Positions 1 to 4,435 of a DNA stretch of 64,000 nt are shown here, piece after piece. Positions within the stretch are counted from its first letter, which is position 1. Each line of letters opens with the position of its first letter. Origin of the DNA: a virus. Location of the stretch: positions 1-64,000 of the IMG/VR virus record IMGVR_UViG_3300036045_000002; one strand, given 5' to 3'. The notes under the pieces were generated by a model that worked only from the letters and a program-made list of their open reading frames with translations, did no database searches and was not told the DNA's origin. Made by a program: the position numbers and the translations under genes.

Positions 1-4
1 GAAC

Positions 5-565
5 GTGTTCTACCAGGACGGGTACGAGGCGGACGACATCATCGCGTCGGTGTGCGACAACACCCCGGCGAAGGACGAGGTGGTCGTCGTCTCGGGGGAC
101 AAGGACCTGCTCCAACTCCTGTCGGCCCGGGTGTTCGTCTGGCAGCCTACCCACCGGCAGGTCATGACCGTCAAGTCCTTCCAGGACCGGTACTACGGCC
201 TGCACCCCCAACACTGGGCGCGGGTCAAGGCCATCGCCGGGTGTTCGACGGATGACGTTCCAGGCGTCAAGGGCGTCGGCGACGCGACGGCCGCCAAGTT
301 CCTCATGGGCCTCAAGACCAACAAGGCGGACGAGATCGAGGCGTGGCTAGTGAGCAACCAGTATCGCAAAAACCTCGACCTCGTCCGCCTCCCGTACACC
401 GGGACGCCTGACTACCCGCCTGTCCAGGACATGGTGGACACCAGGCGCTGGCGGAAGCTGACCACCAGGCTCGGGATGAAGTCGCTGGCCGACCTGGCCC
501 CGCGGCCGGTCGAAGGGTTCGGCCTCCGAAAGGTCGCGATTAGGAAGGCAACCGATGACGAGTAA
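5..565 (+). CDS. 5'-3' exonuclease / flap endonuclease (Pol I N-terminal-like), probably 5'-truncated by the window
   Basis: Motifs GYEADDIIAS, VVSGDKDLLQL and G..TDDVPGVKGVG (helix-3-turn-helix). Confidence 0.9.
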   Translation: MFYQDGYEADDIIASVCDNTPAKDEVVVVSGDKDLLQLLSARVFVWQPTHRQVMTVKSFQDRYYGLHPQHWARVKAIAGCSTDDVPGVKGVGDATAAKFLMGLKTNKADEIEAWLVSNQYRKNLDLVRLPYTGTPDYPPVQDMVDTRRWRKLTTRLGMKSLADLAPRPVEGFGLRKVAIRKATDDE

Positions 566-1922
566 GGACTTAGGGAGATTCGTCGGCCTGGCCGCGTTCG
601 CCAAGAACATGGTGTTCGTCGGCATCGACTCCGGGTCTACCGGGGCCGTCGGATTCCTCTGCGGCCCGCACCACTGCGTCGTGGACATCCCGACCTTCAA
701 GGTGAGCCGCGGGAAGAAGAAGAAGACGGTGTTCGACAACCAGGCCATCGTTGACCTGTTTGACCAACTCGACCGGATCAGTTCCGACCGGGTCATCGCC
801 TGCCTGGAGGAGGCCCAGGTCGGAATCCCCGGCAAGGGGAACTCGGCCTACAACGGCTTCCGGGTCGGGTGCATCGCCGCCGGAACCCCCATCCTGACAA
901 AAAGGGGTTGGGTTAAAATCGAATGTGTGCTACAATCCGATCTACTCTGGGATGGGGTGGAGTGGGTACGCCATGATGGCCCCGTATACCAAGGAGAGAA
1001 AGCGTGCCTTCGAGTGGACGGGATCGACATGACCTCCGACCATCAGGTCCTGACAAGTCGAGGATGGCTGGATGCCAGGACTGTGGCGGGCCTGTTACAA
1101 GATGGAGTTCCGGCCGGTGCCTTGCTTGCAGCCGGAAACGAAACGGAAGGCGAACCGGCCGGGCAAACCGGAAATATGACCTCGGAGGATTGGACAGAAG
1201 ACTATTCCAACGCCTCCAGGAAATCGCTAGGAATGCCATCTACCGGTGTCACAACCCAAGGACGCGGAACTTCTCTGAATACGGAGGACGAGGTATCACG
1301 GTCTGGCTCCCGTGGAGGGAGGATATCGGACGGTTCGTCCGATACATCGCCAAACTTCCAGGCAGCAACAACCGACTTCTCTCGCTCGACCGGATCGAGA
1401 ACGATGAGGGGTACGAACCGGGAAATCTCCGGTTCAGTAACCGGTCTGAACAGCAGAAGAATTCAAGGAGAGCCCGAGTCGTGGTTTACGATGGCCGGCG
1501 AATGTCCTTTGCCGAGTTCGTGGCAAAGTTCTGTCCTCATCTCAAATACGAAACTGCCAGGAAGCGACACGCCGTTCACCATTGGATACTCGACCGAATT
1601 GTCCAAACCCCGTAAGGTCTATGACATCCTAAACTCAGGTCCTCGGTTTCGATTCCAAGCCGGCGACATGATCGTATCCAACTGTAATTGGGCCATGTGG
1701 CCGTTGTTCCTGATGTCCAAAAGGTACGTCCTGCTCGAACCCAGACCGAGCGTCTGGAAGAAGGAGATGAAGCTGGTGGGGACGGGGAAGGACACCAGCC
1801 TCGCGTTGGCCCAGAAACTCTTCCCCAAGGCCGACTTGCGCCTGAAGAAGCACCACGACCGGGCGGAGGCCCTCCTCCTCGCGTCGTGGGCCAGGCGGCA
1901 GTACAAGAAGGAGAACGTCTGA
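555..1922 (+). CDS. RuvC-like Holliday junction resolvase interrupted by an intein
   Basis: N-extein has FVGIDSGSTGA and CLEE; C-extein has PSVWKK and HHDRAEALLLA. Intein occupies aa 106-376. Confidence 0.85.
   Translation: MTSKDLGRFVGLAAFAKNMVFVGIDSGSTGAVGFLCGPHHCVVDIPTFKVSRGKKKKTVFDNQAIVDLFDQLDRISSDRVIACLEEAQVGIPGKGNSAYNGFRVGCIAAGTPILTKRGWVKIECVLQSDLLWDGVEWVRHDGPVYQGEKACLRVDGIDMTSDHQVLTSRGWLDARTVAGLLQDGVPAGALLAAGNETEGEPAGQTGNMTSEDWTEDYSNASRKSLGMPSTGVTTQGRGTSLNTEDEVSRSGSRGGRISDGSSDTSPNFQAATTDFSRSTGSRTMRGTNREISGSVTGLNSRRIQGEPESWFTMAGECPLPSSWQSSVLISNTKLPGSDTPFTIGYSTELSKPRKVYDILNSGPRFRFQAGDMIVSNCNWAMWPLFLMSKRYVLLEPRPSVWKKEMKLVGTGKDTSLALAQKLFPKADLRLKKHHDRAEALLLASWARRQYKKENV
870..1682 (+). mobile_element. 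Intein (Hint domain), 271 aa
   Basis: Block A CIAAGTPILTKRGWVKIE; block B MTSDHQVLT; block F/G KVYDILNSGPRFRFQAGDMIVSN followed by +1 Cys. Visibly more AT-rich than the flanks. Confidence 0.9.
1004..1615 (+). CDS. HNH-family homing endonuclease nested in an alternative frame inside the intein
   Basis: Phage HNH motifs RCHNPRTRNFSEYGGRGITV and LSLDRIENDEGYEPGNLRFS; N-terminal CQDC/CLAC Zn finger; AAGGAG at 991-996, 7 nt before GTG 1004; alternative ATG at 1064. Confidence 0.85.
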   Translation: MPSSGRDRHDLRPSGPDKSRMAGCQDCGGPVTRWSSGRCLACSRKRNGRRTGRANRKYDLGGLDRRLFQRLQEIARNAIYRCHNPRTRNFSEYGGRGITVWLPWREDIGRFVRYIAKLPGSNNRLLSLDRIENDEGYEPGNLRFSNRSEQQKNSRRARVVVYDGRRMSFAEFVAKFCPHLKYETARKRHAVHHWILDRIVQTP

Positions 1923-2245
1923 TGAGCGCCGTTTCGTTCCCCGACTCCGAACACACCACGGGCGTCCAGATCAGGTACGTCCTGGTAGACCCGCTGTTCG
2001 GCGTCTACCTGGGTAACACCGGCGGGACCGACCGCTGGTCCAAGAACCCGGTTGACGAGAAGGAGATCAAGTCGGCCCCCACGTTCACCCGGGACGAGGC
2101 CGAGGCCGTCGGCAAGGAGGTGTGTGACCGGACGGCGGTCGTCCTGGACCTGCAGGCGCACGAGTGCGTGGCCCCCGACATGCCGGACAAGCGGGCGTCG
2201 GTCTCGGCGTGCGCGGACGCCGGCCTGCCCCGGTGGGGCGAGTGA
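1922..2245 (+). CDS. Hypothetical protein
   Basis: ATG overlaps the upstream stop (TGATG); fills the operon gap. Confidence 0.65.
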   Translation: MSAVSFPDSEHTTGVQIRYVLVDPLFGVYLGNTGGTDRWSKNPVDEKEIKSAPTFTRDEAEAVGKEVCDRTAVVLDLQAHECVAPDMPDKRASVSACADAGLPRWGE

Positions 2246-2247
2246 CG

Positions 2248-3348
2248 ATGCTCAGGTCGCTGACCCTCAAAAGATTCCAGAAGCACCAGGATCTCACGGT
2301 CGAACTGGACCGGCGGGTCACGACCGTTGTGGGGGCCACGGACGCCGGCAAGTCGGCGGTGCTCCGGGCCCTCGCGTTCCTGTGCCTGAACAAGTGGTCT
2401 CCGGCCTACCTCAGGCACGGGGCCAAGACGACCGTCGTCCGGCTCACCGTCGGCGACCAGGTCGTCACCAGGACCAAAGGCCCCGGCGTCAACGCCTACA
2501 AGGTCGGAAGGAAGGTGTTCCGTGCCTTCGGGTCGCAAGTCCCGCCGGACGTCGAGGCCGTCCTCAACACCGGGCCGGAAAACTTCCAAAGACAACTCGA
2601 CCAGCACTTCTGGTTCTCCGACACCGCCGGGGCCGTGTCCAAGAAACTCAACGCCATCGTCAACCTGGGGGCCATTGACGACGCTATCGGAAACGTTGGT
2701 CGCCGGGTTCGCGAGTCTCGCTCCGCTGTTGAGGTCACGGCTCGACGCCTTGCCGAGGCTACTGAGAGACGCGACGCTCTGGCCTGGGTCCGCCGGGCCG
2801 ACGACGCCTACCAGGTCGTAGAAGACTCGGAACAGGAACTCACGGACGAGTCGCACAGAATCGCCCGTGTTCGCTCCCGAATCGAAGAAGCCCAGAGTCT
2901 CACGGAGACTGTTGACCGAGTCTCAGGAGCGATTCTAGACGCAAAGGCCGTGCTGGAAGCCGGGGAGGCGGCGCGTCGGGTGCGGGCGAAACTCACGTCC
3001 TTGAAGAAACTCACGTCCAAGATCGACCGGGCCGTCAGGTTGAAGGACACCGAGTTACCCGACCTGACGGAACTGACGGCGCTACGAAAGGCCGGGGACG
3101 ACCTGGCCGAACGCCGGAGGTCCCTGGAGGCCCTGGTCGAGGAGGCGTCAACCCTGGAGGCCGAACTGTGGCAAAGCACCAAGGCGCTGGAGACGTCTTC
3201 CGCAAGGCTGGGCAAGATGTCGAAGGGAAGGTGTCCGGCGTGCGGCAGACCTCTAAACCGATCGCCGTCCTCGTCTCCGACCTACACCTGCGTCACACGG
3301 CACCGGTTTCCCGGGCCGAGAAAGGCGACGCCTGGTACGCCGTTCTAG
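2248..3348 (+). CDS. SbcC/Rad50-like ATPase, N-terminal half
   Basis: Walker A GATDAGKS, Q-loop NFQRQ, coiled coil, zinc hook CPAC. Confidence 0.85.
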   Translation: MLRSLTLKRFQKHQDLTVELDRRVTTVVGATDAGKSAVLRALAFLCLNKWSPAYLRHGAKTTVVRLTVGDQVVTRTKGPGVNAYKVGRKVFRAFGSQVPPDVEAVLNTGPENFQRQLDQHFWFSDTAGAVSKKLNAIVNLGAIDDAIGNVGRRVRESRSAVEVTARRLAEATERRDALAWVRRADDAYQVVEDSEQELTDESHRIARVRSRIEEAQSLTETVDRVSGAILDAKAVLEAGEAARRVRAKLTSLKKLTSKIDRAVRLKDTELPDLTELTALRKAGDDLAERRRSLEALVEEASTLEAELWQSTKALETSSARLGKMSKGRCPACGRPLNRSPSSSPTYTCVTRHRFPGPRKATPGTPF

Positions 3349-4184
3349 GAGGGTACTGCGACCAGCTGAAACGGATCGCAGGTGACCTGCCGATCGTCTG
3401 CGCGGGGGACGTCTTCCACAAGTGGAACTCCCCGCCGGAACTCATCAACTGGGCGATCAAACACCTGCCGAAGATGTACGCCATCCCGGGGCAGCACGAC
3501 CTTCCCCTCCACAACATGCAGGACATCCACAAGTCGGCCTACTGGACACTGGTCGAGGCCGAGGTGATCGATCACCTCGGGTCCGGGAGCTACCGGCGGG
3601 CAGGCAAGGACCTGGTCGTCCACGGCTTCCCGTGGGGGGCGGACGTCCCGAAGAAGGTTAACACCGACTGGTGGCGGGAGGACGAGGTTCACCTGGCCGT
3701 CGTCCACGCCTACTGTTGGGACGACGGCCACTCGTTCCCGGGGGCCGAGCCTAAAAACCACGTCCAGGAGTGGTACAGGCGTCTGAAGACCTATGACGCG
3801 GCCGTCTTCGGGGACAACCACAAAGGATTCCACCAGACCTTCGGGATGCACAACGGGTCGAAAGACTCCTTCTTCGAGGTCATCAATTGCGGTGGGTTCT
3901 ACCGGGCCAAGTCCGACGAGGTCATGTACCAGCCTCAGGTCGGTGTCCTCGACTCCGACGGGTCGATCCGGAGAAAGTTTCTGGACGTCTCGAAGGACGA
4001 GTGGGAAGAGGACGTCCTCAAGGCCGCGCAGACGCCTGCCGTGTCGGTCGAGGAACTCATGGAGTTACTGGACGAGGCGGGGGACGCGGCCTACGACTTC
4101 GCCGAGGCCGTCGTCCGGCGGATGGAGAGGCTGAAGGTGAGCGAGTCGGTCAGGAAGATCGTCCTGAAGGCCCTGGAGGGGTAA
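3231..4184 (+). CDS. SbcD/Mre11-like metallophosphoesterase nuclease
   Basis: Motifs SDLH, AGDVFH, PGQHD, VVH, GDNH. Start taken at GTG 3231; the ORF is open from 3168. Confidence 0.88.
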   Translation: MSGVRQTSKPIAVLVSDLHLRHTAPVSRAEKGDAWYAVLGGYCDQLKRIAGDLPIVCAGDVFHKWNSPPELINWAIKHLPKMYAIPGQHDLPLHNMQDIHKSAYWTLVEAEVIDHLGSGSYRRAGKDLVVHGFPWGADVPKKVNTDWWREDEVHLAVVHAYCWDDGHSFPGAEPKNHVQEWYRRLKTYDAAVFGDNHKGFHQTFGMHNGSKDSFFEVINCGGFYRAKSDEVMYQPQVGVLDSDGSIRRKFLDVSKDEWEEDVLKAAQTPAVSVEELMELLDEAGDAAYDFAEAVVRRMERLKVSESVRKIVLKALEG

Positions 4185-4435
4185 TGATGGTCTTGGACGA
4201 CTTTGAACGGTTGAAGAGAAAGGTCGCCGCCCTCCAGGAGAGGAAGGCCCAGGCCGAGGGGGCGCTCGGCGAACTCCTCCGGCAACTCAAGAAGGAGTTC
4301 GGGTGCAAGACCCTCGCCCAGGCCAGGCGTCTCCTGGTCAAGCTCCAGGACGGGGAACGGCGGGCGGCCGTTAGGTACACCAAGGCCAAGACCGAGTTTG
4401 AACGGAAATGGAAGAAGGTGTTGGATGCCGTCTGA
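4184..4435 (+). CDS. Small coiled-coil protein in the SbcCD module
   Basis: TAATG coupling to the upstream gene; heptad-rich sequence. Confidence 0.7.
   Translation: MMVLDDFERLKRKVAALQERKAQAEGALGELLRQLKKEFGCKTLAQARRLLVKLQDGERRAAVRYTKAKTEFERKWKKVLDAV

What the first reader, a model, noticed from the sequence alone, without database searches (positions are those of the whole stretch)
870..1682. HNH homing endonuclease encoded out-of-frame inside an intact intein
Seen: the RuvC-like gene carries a 271-aa intein with all splicing blocks (C1, TxxH, F block, terminal SN, +1 Cys). Where an endonuclease domain would normally sit in-frame, the intein frame reads as low-complexity S/T/G/R sequence with no stop codon. 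The same DNA in a shifted frame (1004 or 1064 to 1615) encodes a recognisable Zn-finger plus HNH endonuclease. Its stop lies immediately before intein block F, and AAGGAG sits 7 nt upstream of its GTG. Established: intein homing endonucleases are normally in-frame domains of the intein. Inference: this is a dual-coded selfish element. The HNH is made as a separate protein, while the intein splices the off-frame translation out of the resolvase. About 200 codons must stay open in both frames. I do not know this architecture as a described class.
Basis: partly seen in the sequence, partly recalled or inferred. Interest (0 to 1): 0.9.

Follow-up and report, generated by a model that had tools for sequence, protein, structure and literature searches.

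The report
Resolvase intein hiding an out-of-frame nuclease
A phage DNA-repair gene carries a self-splicing protein insert (intein). The same DNA, read one base out of step, encodes the nuclease that probably spreads the insert. The layout is real and under selection, but it was already described in 2025-26 preprints.

Summary
ORF 555..1922 of this 80-kb uncultured sediment phage is a MOC1/RuvC-like Holliday-junction resolvase. It is interrupted at 870..1682 by a class-1 intein. The -1 frame (1004 or 1064 to 1615) encodes an intact nuclease of a very large phage family.

- **Not an assembly error.** An independent contig reproduces 844-1715 with no differences.
- **Polymorphic in its own sample.** A second contig from the same sample joins 872 to 1686 and skips exactly 813 nt. 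This is the intein-less allele, at about one third of the depth.
- **Family-wide layout.** Of 94 nuclease-bearing relatives in IMG/VR, 91 keep the intein frame stop-free (59 with the nuclease at +1, 32 at +2). Three carry stops and look like fractured genes. None has the nuclease in frame.
- **Selection.** About 5.7 stops per locus are expected by chance. Substitution patterns show selection on the nuclease frame only. The intein-frame stretch is predicted to be a disordered linker.
- **Nuclease type.** It is a His-less, PacI-like member of the His-Me finger superfamily, not a canonical HNH.

The kind is already described (Gosselin et al. 2025, Phillips et al. 2026, and the nested P46 gene in the APSE-1 record), and this scan has noted it many times on other DNA. 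New here are the resolvase as host gene and the caught empty site.

The parts
555..1922 (+). Precursor ORF of the MOC1/RuvC-like Holliday-junction resolvase (455 aa plus stop), containing the intein
   Evidence: ORF list. phrog_1770 matched in two stretches split by the insert. A profile of the intein-less homologues P0002, P0003 and P0005 hits the MOC1 resolvase structures at E 1.4e-14.
555..869 (+). N-extein (105 aa), with the ..VGIDSGSTG.. and ..CLEEA.. motifs
   Evidence: Aligns to the intein-less homologues. phrog_1770 positions 3-62.
870..1682 (+). Class-1 intein, 271 aa (Cys1 to Asn271)
   Evidence: Homologous to phage DNA-polymerase inteins. The invariant residues C1, T55, H58, D252 and N271 are kept. 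The predicted fold matches solved inteins. An exactly 813-nt skip is seen in the intein-less allele.
870..1124 (+). N-terminal splicing domain (residues 1-85, blocks A and B with T55-x-x-H58)
   Evidence: pLDDT 93-97. Profile A1 hits the Neq Pol intein at 7e-5 and PI-MtuI at 0.01.
1137..1580 (+). Intein-frame linker (residues 90-237), the stop-free off-frame translation of the nuclease gene, predicted disordered
   Evidence: pLDDT about 40 with no secondary structure. No sequence conservation beyond that of a non-coding frame. Composition equals the synonymous-shuffle null.
1590..1682 (+). C-terminal splicing domain (residues 241-271, blocks F and G: ..VYDILNSGPRFRF.. and ..IVSN)
   Evidence: pLDDT 82-95. 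D252, I253, L254, G257, R259, R261, F262 and N271 are invariant in A4.
1683..1919 (+). C-extein (79 aa), starting with the +1 Cys codon TGT at 1683-1685
   Evidence: Aligns to the intein-less homologues (..AMWPLFL.. to the end). phrog_1770 positions 92-153.
1004..1615 (+). Nested nuclease ORF in the -1 frame (203 aa from GTG 1004, or 183 aa from ATG 1064; TAA at 1613-1615)
   Evidence: PHROG families labelled HNH endonuclease, 3.3e-27. 73,142 related cluster representatives. All ten family-invariant residues are present. AF2 mean pLDDT 85.5.
992..997 (+). Shine-Dalgarno-like AAGGAG, 6 nt upstream of GTG 1004
   Evidence: Read from the sequence. In relatives an SD-like motif precedes the first start codon in 29 of 87, against 10.8% of random positions.
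1073..1129 (+). Putative zinc ribbon of the nuclease (CxxC at residues 24 and 27, CxxC at 39 and 42)
   Evidence: Cys columns are invariant in A2. Metal binding is inferred, not tested.
1382..1468 (+). Predicted beta-beta-alpha (His-Me finger) core, residues 127-155, with D129, R130, Y137, N141 and N153
   Evidence: Secondary structure E127-130, E142-145, H147-155 at pLDDT above 90. Same register as the I-HmuI HNH motif. Best fold match is PacI, Z 5.3.
844..872 (+). Left half of the empty (intein-less) site, joined directly to 1686-1715 in a 59-nt contig
   Evidence: Joint 872->1686 skipping 813 nt, depth 7.5 (X1) and 2.9 (X2).
1686..1715 (+). Right half of the empty site
   Evidence: tables 5 and 8.

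Best explanation
This is a mobile intein of a widespread phage family, sitting in the resolvase gene of an uncultured sediment phage. Its homing nuclease is a separate gene written in the -1 frame over the middle of the intein.

Mechanism:
1. Ribosomes starting at ATG 555 make a 455-aa precursor. It consists of the N-extein, an 85-aa N-terminal splicing domain, a linker of about 150 aa that is simply the off-frame reading of the nuclease gene, a roughly 30-aa C-terminal splicing domain, and the C-extein.
2. Standard class-1 protein splicing (Cys1, Thr55/His58, Asn271, Cys+1) removes the 271 aa and ligates a 184-aa MOC1/RuvC-like resolvase. (Inferred.)
3. Ribosomes starting independently inside the gene, at GTG 1004 behind AAGGAG or at ATG 1064, make a 183-203-aa nuclease. 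It has a zinc ribbon, a His-less PacI-type beta-beta-alpha metal core and a helical tail. (Inferred.)
4. That nuclease cuts intein-less alleles near ..GTCGGG|TGCAAT.., and repair from an intein-bearing genome copies the element in. (Inferred.)

Shown here: selection keeps the intein frame free of stops and imposes no other visible constraint on the linker, while the nuclease frame is under ordinary purifying selection.

Likely origin: a free-standing nuclease gene invaded a mini-intein, as in the model of Dassa et al. 2009 and Gosselin et al. 2025.
For: **Both coding layers are real**
- The intein N and C parts are homologous to phage polymerase inteins.
- The predicted intein fold matches about 50 solved inteins or Hint domains, with a disordered middle.
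- The nested ORF belongs to a family of more than 73,000 cluster representatives, keeps every invariant residue, and folds at pLDDT 85.5.

**Not an artefact**
- A contig at depth 13.9 covers 844-1715 with no difference.

**Family-wide architecture**
- 91 of 94 relatives keep both frames open, 0 have the nuclease in frame, and they form 87 clusters at 90% identity.
- 498 stops are expected over 87 representatives. The 21 observed all lie in 3 loci.

**Which frame is selected**
- Amino-acid identity in the nuclease frame (0.30-0.56) is about twice that in the intein frame (0.14-0.33). The intein-frame value equals that of the closed third frame.
- In close pairs, 54-57% of differences fall on nuclease third codon positions.

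**Mobility**
- An intein-less allele with an exact 813-nt skip coexists in the same sample at 7.5x, against 13.9x for the intein allele. The shared downstream flank is at 21.4x, the sum of the two.
- The family sits in at least 10 insertion sites.
- Intein-less resolvase homologues exist.

**Independent start**
- AAGGAG lies 6 nt before GTG 1004.
- SD-like motifs are about 3-fold enriched before the first start codon in relatives.
Against: - No expression, splicing or cleavage data exist. No RNA run holds the stretch.
- The penultimate intein residue is Ser, not the usual His. Two relatives, P0004 and P0011, share this.
- The nuclease lacks the canonical general-base His. An Arg is invariant at that position.
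- Fold matches to solved His-Me nucleases are only middling: PacI Z 5.3, Foldseek E about 1.
- The start codon is ambiguous. Most relatives (58 of 87) have no SD-like motif before the first start codon. Some conserved 'start codons' are by-products of conserved Trp and Asp codons of the intein.
- The empty-site evidence rests on 59-nt contigs of one sample, not on raw reads. It could reflect precise loss rather than a not-yet-invaded target.
Confidence: 0.8

Rival explanations
1. Relic: the intein still splices, but the nested nuclease gene is no longer expressed or active. The element is then a mini-intein with a long tolerated linker, and the open nuclease frame is left over from a recent invasion.
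For: The canonical catalytic His is missing. No RNA evidence exists. Most relatives have no SD-like motif before the first start codon. 16 mini-inteins in the family show that the nuclease can be lost.
Against: The His-less state is invariant across the whole family of more than 73,000 clusters, and it matches the active PacI type, which uses a Tyr. The window keeps all ten invariant residues. The nuclease frame shows purifying selection across lineages that share only 30-50% identity. Intein-plus and intein-minus alleles coexist.
Confidence: 0.1
2. Frameshift fusion: ribosomes translating the precursor slip -1 between about 977 and 1064. They produce an N-extein / N-splicing-domain / nuclease fusion that ends at TAA 1613, instead of or alongside an independently initiated nuclease.
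For: The nuclease frame is already open from 977, upstream of any start codon. Many relatives lack an SD-like motif. An internal SD-like AAGGAG could in principle stimulate slippage (my inference from the dnaX precedent, from memory).
Against: I saw no slippery heptamer at 977-1064 on reading the sequence. Relatives use both +1 and -1 offsets, which would need two different recoding mechanisms. Residues 1-20 of the ORF are predicted unstructured. Fractured relatives, with stops right after the N-domain, still keep the nuclease ORF.
Confidence: 0.05
3. Artefact: two compensating indel errors in a metagenome assembly, so that the nuclease is really an in-frame intein domain.
For: The window is an uncultured IMG/VR contig.
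Against: Independent contigs of two runs agree base for base. Six isolate or curated phage records and 85 more viral contigs show the same out-of-frame layout, and none has the nuclease in frame. The stop-free second frame is itself non-random.
Confidence: 0.01
4. RNA-level element: the insert is a group I or II intron carrying a nuclease ORF, not an intein.
For: Nuclease ORFs of this superfamily are common in phage introns (general knowledge).
Against: No Rfam intron family matches 500-2000 at E up to 1. The borders carry intein catalytic residues in frame with the exteins, and the ends fold as a Hint domain. Selection keeps the host frame open across the insert, which an intron would not need.
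Confidence: 0.01

Closest known systems
Non-canonical actinobacteriophage inteins with a homing endonuclease in a separate reading frame (Gosselin, Arsenault and Gogarten, bioRxiv 10.1101/2025.01.02.630785)
   Same: A full intein whose endonuclease gene lies between the splicing blocks on the same strand in another frame. The in-frame reading gives no recognisable structure. The proposed origin is invasion of an intein by a free-standing endonuclease gene.
   Different: Their same-strand case is an endonuclease VII-like enzyme in 'frame 3'. Their hosts are DNA polymerase, minor capsid, terminase and thymidylate synthase, all in actinophages, and they call the layout rare. Here the enzyme is a PacI-like His-less nuclease, the host is a resolvase, and the intein family shows the layout in 91 of 94 nuclease-bearing members.
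APSE-1 DNA polymerase (P45) intein with the nested gene P46 (NC_000935.1; intein first reported by van der Wilk et al. 1999, cited in PMC549080)
   Same: Same intein family and same nuclease family: N part 51% identical, nuclease E 4e-15, out of frame. RefSeq annotates an 'HNH endonuclease' CDS nested in the polymerase CDS.
   Different: The host gene is a polymerase. The nuclease is in the +1 rather than the -1 frame and belongs to the other subfamily, which has a C-terminal helix-turn-helix-like tail. I could not read the 1999 paper to see whether it discusses the overlap.
[quoted passage not shown]
   Same: An intein with an overlapping, conserved endonuclease frame under purifying selection. 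Intein-free, mini-intein and full-intein alleles coexist in natural populations.
   Different: The host is cellular (cyanobacteria), and both the endonuclease type and the intein lineage differ.
ShiLan domain and Pacc40 insertion (Arsenault et al. 2025, PMC11855218)
   Same: A hidden out-of-frame HNH gene inside a phage gene that stays stop-free in the host frame. It has a GTG start and a stop at the very end of the insert.
   Different: Those inserts have no splicing domains and are thought to stay in the protein. Here complete Hint halves flank the overlap.
Fractured genes: split intein halves flanking a free-standing endonuclease gene (Dassa et al. 2009, PMC2677866)
   Same: Same gene order: N-intein, endonuclease ORF, C-intein. 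Three relatives in my survey (L014, L081, L106) have stops right after the N-domain and look like this form.
   Different: In the window the host frame reads through, so the intein is contiguous (cis-splicing) and the endonuclease gene is fully overlapped.
PacI restriction endonuclease, His-Me finger group 20 (PDB 3m7k/3ldy; PMC5714182)
   Same: Best structural match of the nested protein (Z 5.3, 84 residues, rmsd 3.1). No catalytic His. There is a Tyr in the loop between the two strands, where PacI has the Tyr that replaces the His. Zinc-binding Cys pairs are present.
   Different: The match is only middling and sequence identity is 19%. Membership in group 20 is not shown, and PacI is a restriction enzyme rather than a homing enzyme.

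Membership tests
Intein (class 1, Hint fold) | Cys/Ser at position 1 and block B T-x-x-H | tested here: met
   C1, T55 and H58 are invariant in alignments A1 and A4.
Intein (class 1, Hint fold) | C-terminal Asn followed by Cys/Ser/Thr at +1 | tested here: met
   ..IVSN|C at 1680-1685. N271 is invariant, and +1 is C (or S in some relatives).
Intein (class 1, Hint fold) | Penultimate His (common, not obligatory) | tested here: not met
   The residue is Ser270. The relatives P0004 and P0011 also have ..VSNC.
Intein (class 1, Hint fold) | Hint fold of the joined N and C parts | tested here: met
   The AF2 ends have pLDDT 82-97. The top ~50 Foldseek rows are almost all inteins or Hint domains, best E 1e-3, most with prob near 1.0. 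The N-part profile hits the Neq Pol intein at 7e-5.
Intein (class 1, Hint fold) | Clean in-frame insertion relative to intein-less homologues | tested here: met
   P0002, P0003 and P0005 lack it. An exact 813-nt skip is seen in the same sample.
Intein (class 1, Hint fold) | Protein splicing activity | not testable with these tools
   Needs expression of 555..1922.
Canonical HNH endonuclease (Pfam HNH / HNH_3 type) | General-base His at the end of strand 1 (the D-H motif) | tested here: not met
   D129-R130 is invariant in 33 family members. It aligns to V-D-H of I-HmuI. No Pfam HNH model matches.
His-Me finger superfamily, PacI-like (His-less, Tyr) type | Beta-beta-alpha metal fold | tested here: inconclusive
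   Predicted E127-130, E142-145, H147-155 at pLDDT above 90. PacI Z 5.3, CAD Z 3.0, GVE2 HNH Z 2.5. Foldseek best hit is the Gme HNH at E 1.1.
His-Me finger superfamily, PacI-like (His-less, Tyr) type | Metal-ligand Asp/Asn, and a Tyr in the loop that replaces the His | tested here: inconclusive
   D129, Y137, N141 and N153 are invariant. The role of Tyr in PacI comes from PMC5714182. I did not check the residue-by-residue structural equivalence.
Homing element (endonuclease-driven mobile insert) | Presence/absence polymorphism at one precise site among otherwise like genomes | tested here: met
   Intein-plus (13.9x) and intein-minus (7.5x) contigs share their flanks in run X1 and again in X2.
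Homing element (endonuclease-driven mobile insert) | The encoded nuclease cleaves the empty site | not testable with these tools
   Needs a cleavage assay.
Inteins with an out-of-frame, same-strand endonuclease gene (kind described in 2025-26 preprints) | The endonuclease ORF lies between the splicing blocks in another frame, the intein frame is stop-free across it, and the layout is conserved in relatives | tested here: met
RuvC-superfamily (MOC1-like) Holliday junction resolvase (host gene) | Sequence-profile match to solved resolvases, and the family motifs | tested here: met
   The intein-less homologue profile hits MOC1 at 1.4e-14. phrog_1770 at 7.8e-13. The G-I-D, L-E-E and H-H-D-R-A-E-A motifs align.
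Group I/II intron | Match to an intron RNA family | tested here: inconclusive
   No Rfam match at E up to 1 in 500-2000. Absence of a match does not exclude an undescribed RNA.

The most novel reading that the evidence does not exclude
The overlap may be a stable evolved strategy rather than a transitional accident.

If the nuclease gene lies out of frame under an essential host reading frame, every frameshifting indel and many nonsense changes in the nuclease gene also destroy the host protein. Such changes are then purged. The element would borrow the host's purifying selection to slow the usual decay of homing endonuclease genes.

This would explain three observations:
- None of the 94 relatives has drifted into frame.
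- Two different offsets are each stable across deep lineages.
- The family has spread to at least 10 insertion sites.
Probability: 0.2. Interest if true: 0.6.

Novelty: new member of a known kind. Interest (0 to 1): 0.4.

Why it matters
**Annotation.** Gene callers will report one long 'hypothetical or resolvase' protein with a low-complexity middle and will miss the nuclease. Neither layer has a Pfam or NCBIfam hit.

**Intein biology.** The survey made here suggests that this layout is the rule, not a rarity, in a large phage intein family. Ninety-one of 94 nuclease-bearing members keep both frames open, two offsets occur, and none is in frame. The 2025 preprint describes such architectures as rare.

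**An experimental system.** The window offers both the intein-bearing allele and the empty allele from one natural population. These are the two substrates needed to test homing, internal initiation, and splicing of an intein with a roughly 150-residue unstructured insert.

**Engineering.** The disordered, sequence-unconstrained linker shows how much arbitrary sequence this splicing domain tolerates.

Tried and rejected
**Searches that found nothing or too little**
- Megablast of 1-4200 against phage records: no match.
- The search for related loci with the whole precursor in viral contigs: none.
- The search for homologous proteins: no other resolvase with this intein. Only the window's own protein matched over its whole length.
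- Pfam and NCBIfam: nothing for the precursor, the intein or the nested ORF. Pfam on 33 family members gave only AP2 in 4.
- Sequence search of PDB with the single proteins: not significant. The nuclease profile against PDB gave I-HmuI at only E 0.65.
- Foldseek of the nuclease model against PDB: no match at E 0.001 or better.

**Tool and data limits**
- No RNA holder is listed for the stretch.
- Runs X3 and X4 cover only parts of the stretch.

**Ideas dropped**
- Selection on linker composition. Hydrophobic fraction is 0.259 against 0.255 in the null, and the disorder-promoting fraction is 0.619 in both, so there is no signal.
- A 'mosaic' origin, with splicing domains from the +1 clade and the nuclease from the +2 clade. 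The N-part scores barely differ between clades (median 68 against 64 bits), so I do not claim it.
- Conserved start codons at +92 and +194 as evidence for the start site. They arise from the conserved Asp-Gly and Trp codons of the intein (and reading the sequence).

Full report
**What is there**

The window is the first 64 kb of an 80,085-nt IMG/VR virus record, estimated 99% complete. The runs that hold it are sediment metagenomes.

ORF 555..1922 (+, 455 aa) lies between a 5'-3' exonuclease gene and an SbcC/Rad50-like ATPase gene. PHROGs matches it to Holliday junction resolvase phrog_1770 in two stretches, residues 18-90 and 391-452, so the match is split by an insert. Three intein-less homologues from metagenomes (P0002, P0003, P0005) align to both ends. 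Their profile hits the solved MOC1 resolvases at E 1.4e-14. The host gene is therefore a RuvC-superfamily resolvase.

**The insert is an intein**

The insert 870..1682 begins C-I-A-A-G-T and ends I-V-S-N, followed by Cys.

- Its first roughly 75 and last roughly 35 residues are homologous to inteins in phage DNA polymerases (APSE-1, Caulobacter, Shewanella, Pseudomonas and Vibrio phages, and EBPR siphovirus 2), at 44-51% identity for the N part.
- C1, T55, H58, D252 and N271 are invariant.
- A profile of the N part hits solved inteins: Neq Pol at 7e-5 and PI-MtuI at 0.01.
- AlphaFold2 gives pLDDT 93-97 for residues 1-85 and 82-95 for residues 241-272. Residues 90-237 score about 40 with no secondary structure.
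- Foldseek then returns a list made almost entirely of inteins and Hint domains.
- The only departure from the textbook is Ser rather than His before the terminal Asn. Two relatives share this.

**The nested ORF is a real gene**

In the -1 frame, 1004..1615 (203 aa) matches PHROG families labelled HNH endonuclease at 3.3e-27.

- It has 73,142 related cluster representatives at E 0.001 or better.
- It keeps all ten residues that are invariant in a 33-member alignment: R81, C82, G94, G97, W104, D129, R130, Y137, N141 and N153.
- It folds at mean pLDDT 85.5, with a beta-beta-alpha unit at residues 127-155.
- Some relatives carry an AP2 DNA-binding domain, as known HNH-AP2 homing enzymes do (the HNH-AP2 link is from my own knowledge).

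It is not a canonical HNH. The D-H of the motif is D-R in every member, and this position aligns to V-D-H of I-HmuI. The best structural match, though only middling, is PacI (Z 5.3, 84 residues). PacI is the documented His-Me finger enzyme that lacks the His and uses a loop Tyr instead (PMC5714182). The invariant Tyr137 sits in that loop. I therefore call the protein a PacI-like His-Me finger nuclease. Its activity is inferred.

**Not an error, and not chance**

Contigs assembled independently from two runs of one sediment sample cover 844-1715 with no difference and no gap.

In the window the intein frame has 0 stops over the 212 codons open in the nuclease frame. The third sense frame has 8, and the antisense frames have 3-5. 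P(0 stops) is 0.014 under synonymous permutation.

Six phage records show the same thing. The N and C intein parts share one frame, the nuclease homologue is in another, and the annotated polymerase CDS reads through. RefSeq even annotates the nested gene in APSE-1.

**Family survey**

A pattern for the conserved W-D-G-V-E-W-V codons pulled 118 IMG/VR stretches. HMMs for the N part, the C part and the nuclease core then classified them together with the window and the eight phage-record loci L001-L008.

| Class | Count |
|---|---|
| Nuclease in the +1 frame, intein frame open | 59 |
| Nuclease in the +2 frame, intein frame open | 32 |
| Nuclease present, stops in the intein frame (fractured-gene-like) | 3 |
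| Nuclease in frame with the intein | 0 |
| Mini-inteins without nuclease | 16 |

- The 94 nuclease-bearing inteins form 87 clusters at 90% identity and 21 at 50%. No cluster mixes offsets.
- Over the 87 representatives, 498 stops are expected in the intein frame. The 21 observed all lie in the three exceptions.

**Which frame is under selection**

- On the same aligned nucleotides, amino-acid identity is 0.30-0.56 in the nuclease frame. It is 0.14-0.33 in the intein frame and 0.12-0.30 in the closed third frame.
- In close ungapped pairs, 54-57% of differences fall on nuclease third positions. For the +1 group, the position that is the intein frame's wobble changes least (17%).
- Linker composition equals the shuffle null.

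The linker therefore has to be stop-free and nothing more.

**Mobility**

In runs X1 and X2, a 59-nt contig joins 872 directly to 1686. It skips exactly 813 nt, which is the intein length, and gives ..G-C-N-W...

| Contig (run X1) | Depth |
|---|---|
| Intein-less joint | 7.5 |
| Intein-bearing contig | 13.9 |
| Shared downstream flank | 21.4 (the sum of the two) |

About a third of this phage population therefore lacks the intein at precisely the predicted junction.

The intein family occupies at least 10 insertion sites. These are one polymerase site (88 cases), a helicase-like gene (11), several other polymerase sites, and this resolvase, which is the only such case. No other resolvase with this intein exists among 5.8 billion clustered proteins.

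**How the nuclease is made**

This is the weakest step. The window has AAGGAG 6 nt before GTG 1004. Residues 1-20 from that start are predicted unstructured, and ATG 1064 is also possible.

In relatives an SD-like motif precedes the first start codon in 29 of 87, against 10.8% of random positions. It precedes some candidate start in 55 of 87. This fits internal initiation but does not prove it. Frameshifting into the nuclease frame is a low-probability rival.

**Comparison with what is known**

| Source | What it describes |
|---|---|
| Gosselin et al. 2025 | Inteins with endonucleases in a separate frame: antisense LAGLIDADG and VSR-like, and a same-strand endonuclease VII-like enzyme. They propose invasion of inteins by free-standing endonuclease genes. 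|
| Phillips et al. 2026 | The cyanobacterial dnaX case. |
| Arsenault et al. 2025 | Out-of-frame HNH inserts without splicing domains. |
| Dassa et al. 2009 (PMC2677866; I saw only its abstract, so this description also draws and on memory) | The split ('fractured gene') version. |

This scan has also noted the same kind many times on other DNA, in polymerase, terminase and methyltransferase genes. I did not rely on those notes.

The window is therefore a new member of a known kind. What it adds is a new host gene, a His-less nuclease type, and an unusually clean natural pair of filled and empty sites.

Noticed in passing
window 600-873 (SNPs at 638, 731, 761, 824, 827, 833, 836, 842): The dominant upstream-flank contig in runs X1-X3 differs from the window at 8 positions, all third codon positions of the resolvase. 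Five of them cluster within 19 nt just 5' of the intein insertion site. This could be a co-conversion tract or simply strain variation. The contigs are too short to phase the SNPs with intein presence.
   Followed up: partly
L014:948-1957, L081 (- strand), L106 (- strand): Three relatives have stops in the intein frame, the first right after the N-terminal splicing domain (252 nt after Cys1 in L081 and L106). The nuclease ORF is intact in all three. They look like the 'fractured gene / split intein' form of the same element.
   Followed up: partly
L060, L065, L080, L083, L093: These viral contigs carry two inteins of this family within a few kb on one strand. Some pair a mini-intein with a nuclease-bearing one. 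L060 has one of each offset, +1 and +2.
   Followed up: no
window 1004-1615 and alignment A3: This nuclease family has more than 73,000 cluster representatives at 50% identity but no Pfam or NCBIfam model. Many members contain 2-3 tandem copies of the core.
   Followed up: partly
window 1064 and the +92 / +194 positions in relatives: Apparently conserved ATG/GTG/TTG 'starts' in the nuclease frame are by-products of the intein's conserved Asp-Gly and Trp codons (xxN TGG read one base early). Conservation of a start codon is therefore not evidence here.
   Followed up: yes
window 870-1100 versus 1004-1615: The window's nuclease groups clearly with the +2-offset clade (median 82 against 50 bits). 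Its best-scoring splicing-domain relatives are in the +1 clade, but only marginally. This is too weak to claim module exchange.
   Followed up: partly
window 2248-3348 and 3168-4184: The SbcC/Rad50-like ATPase ORF (AAA_23) and the next ORF overlap by about 180 nt as listed. The second ORF has no Pfam hit. By eye it has metallophosphoesterase-like motifs (D-L-H-L, G-D-V-F-H). Its true start is probably further downstream.
   Followed up: no
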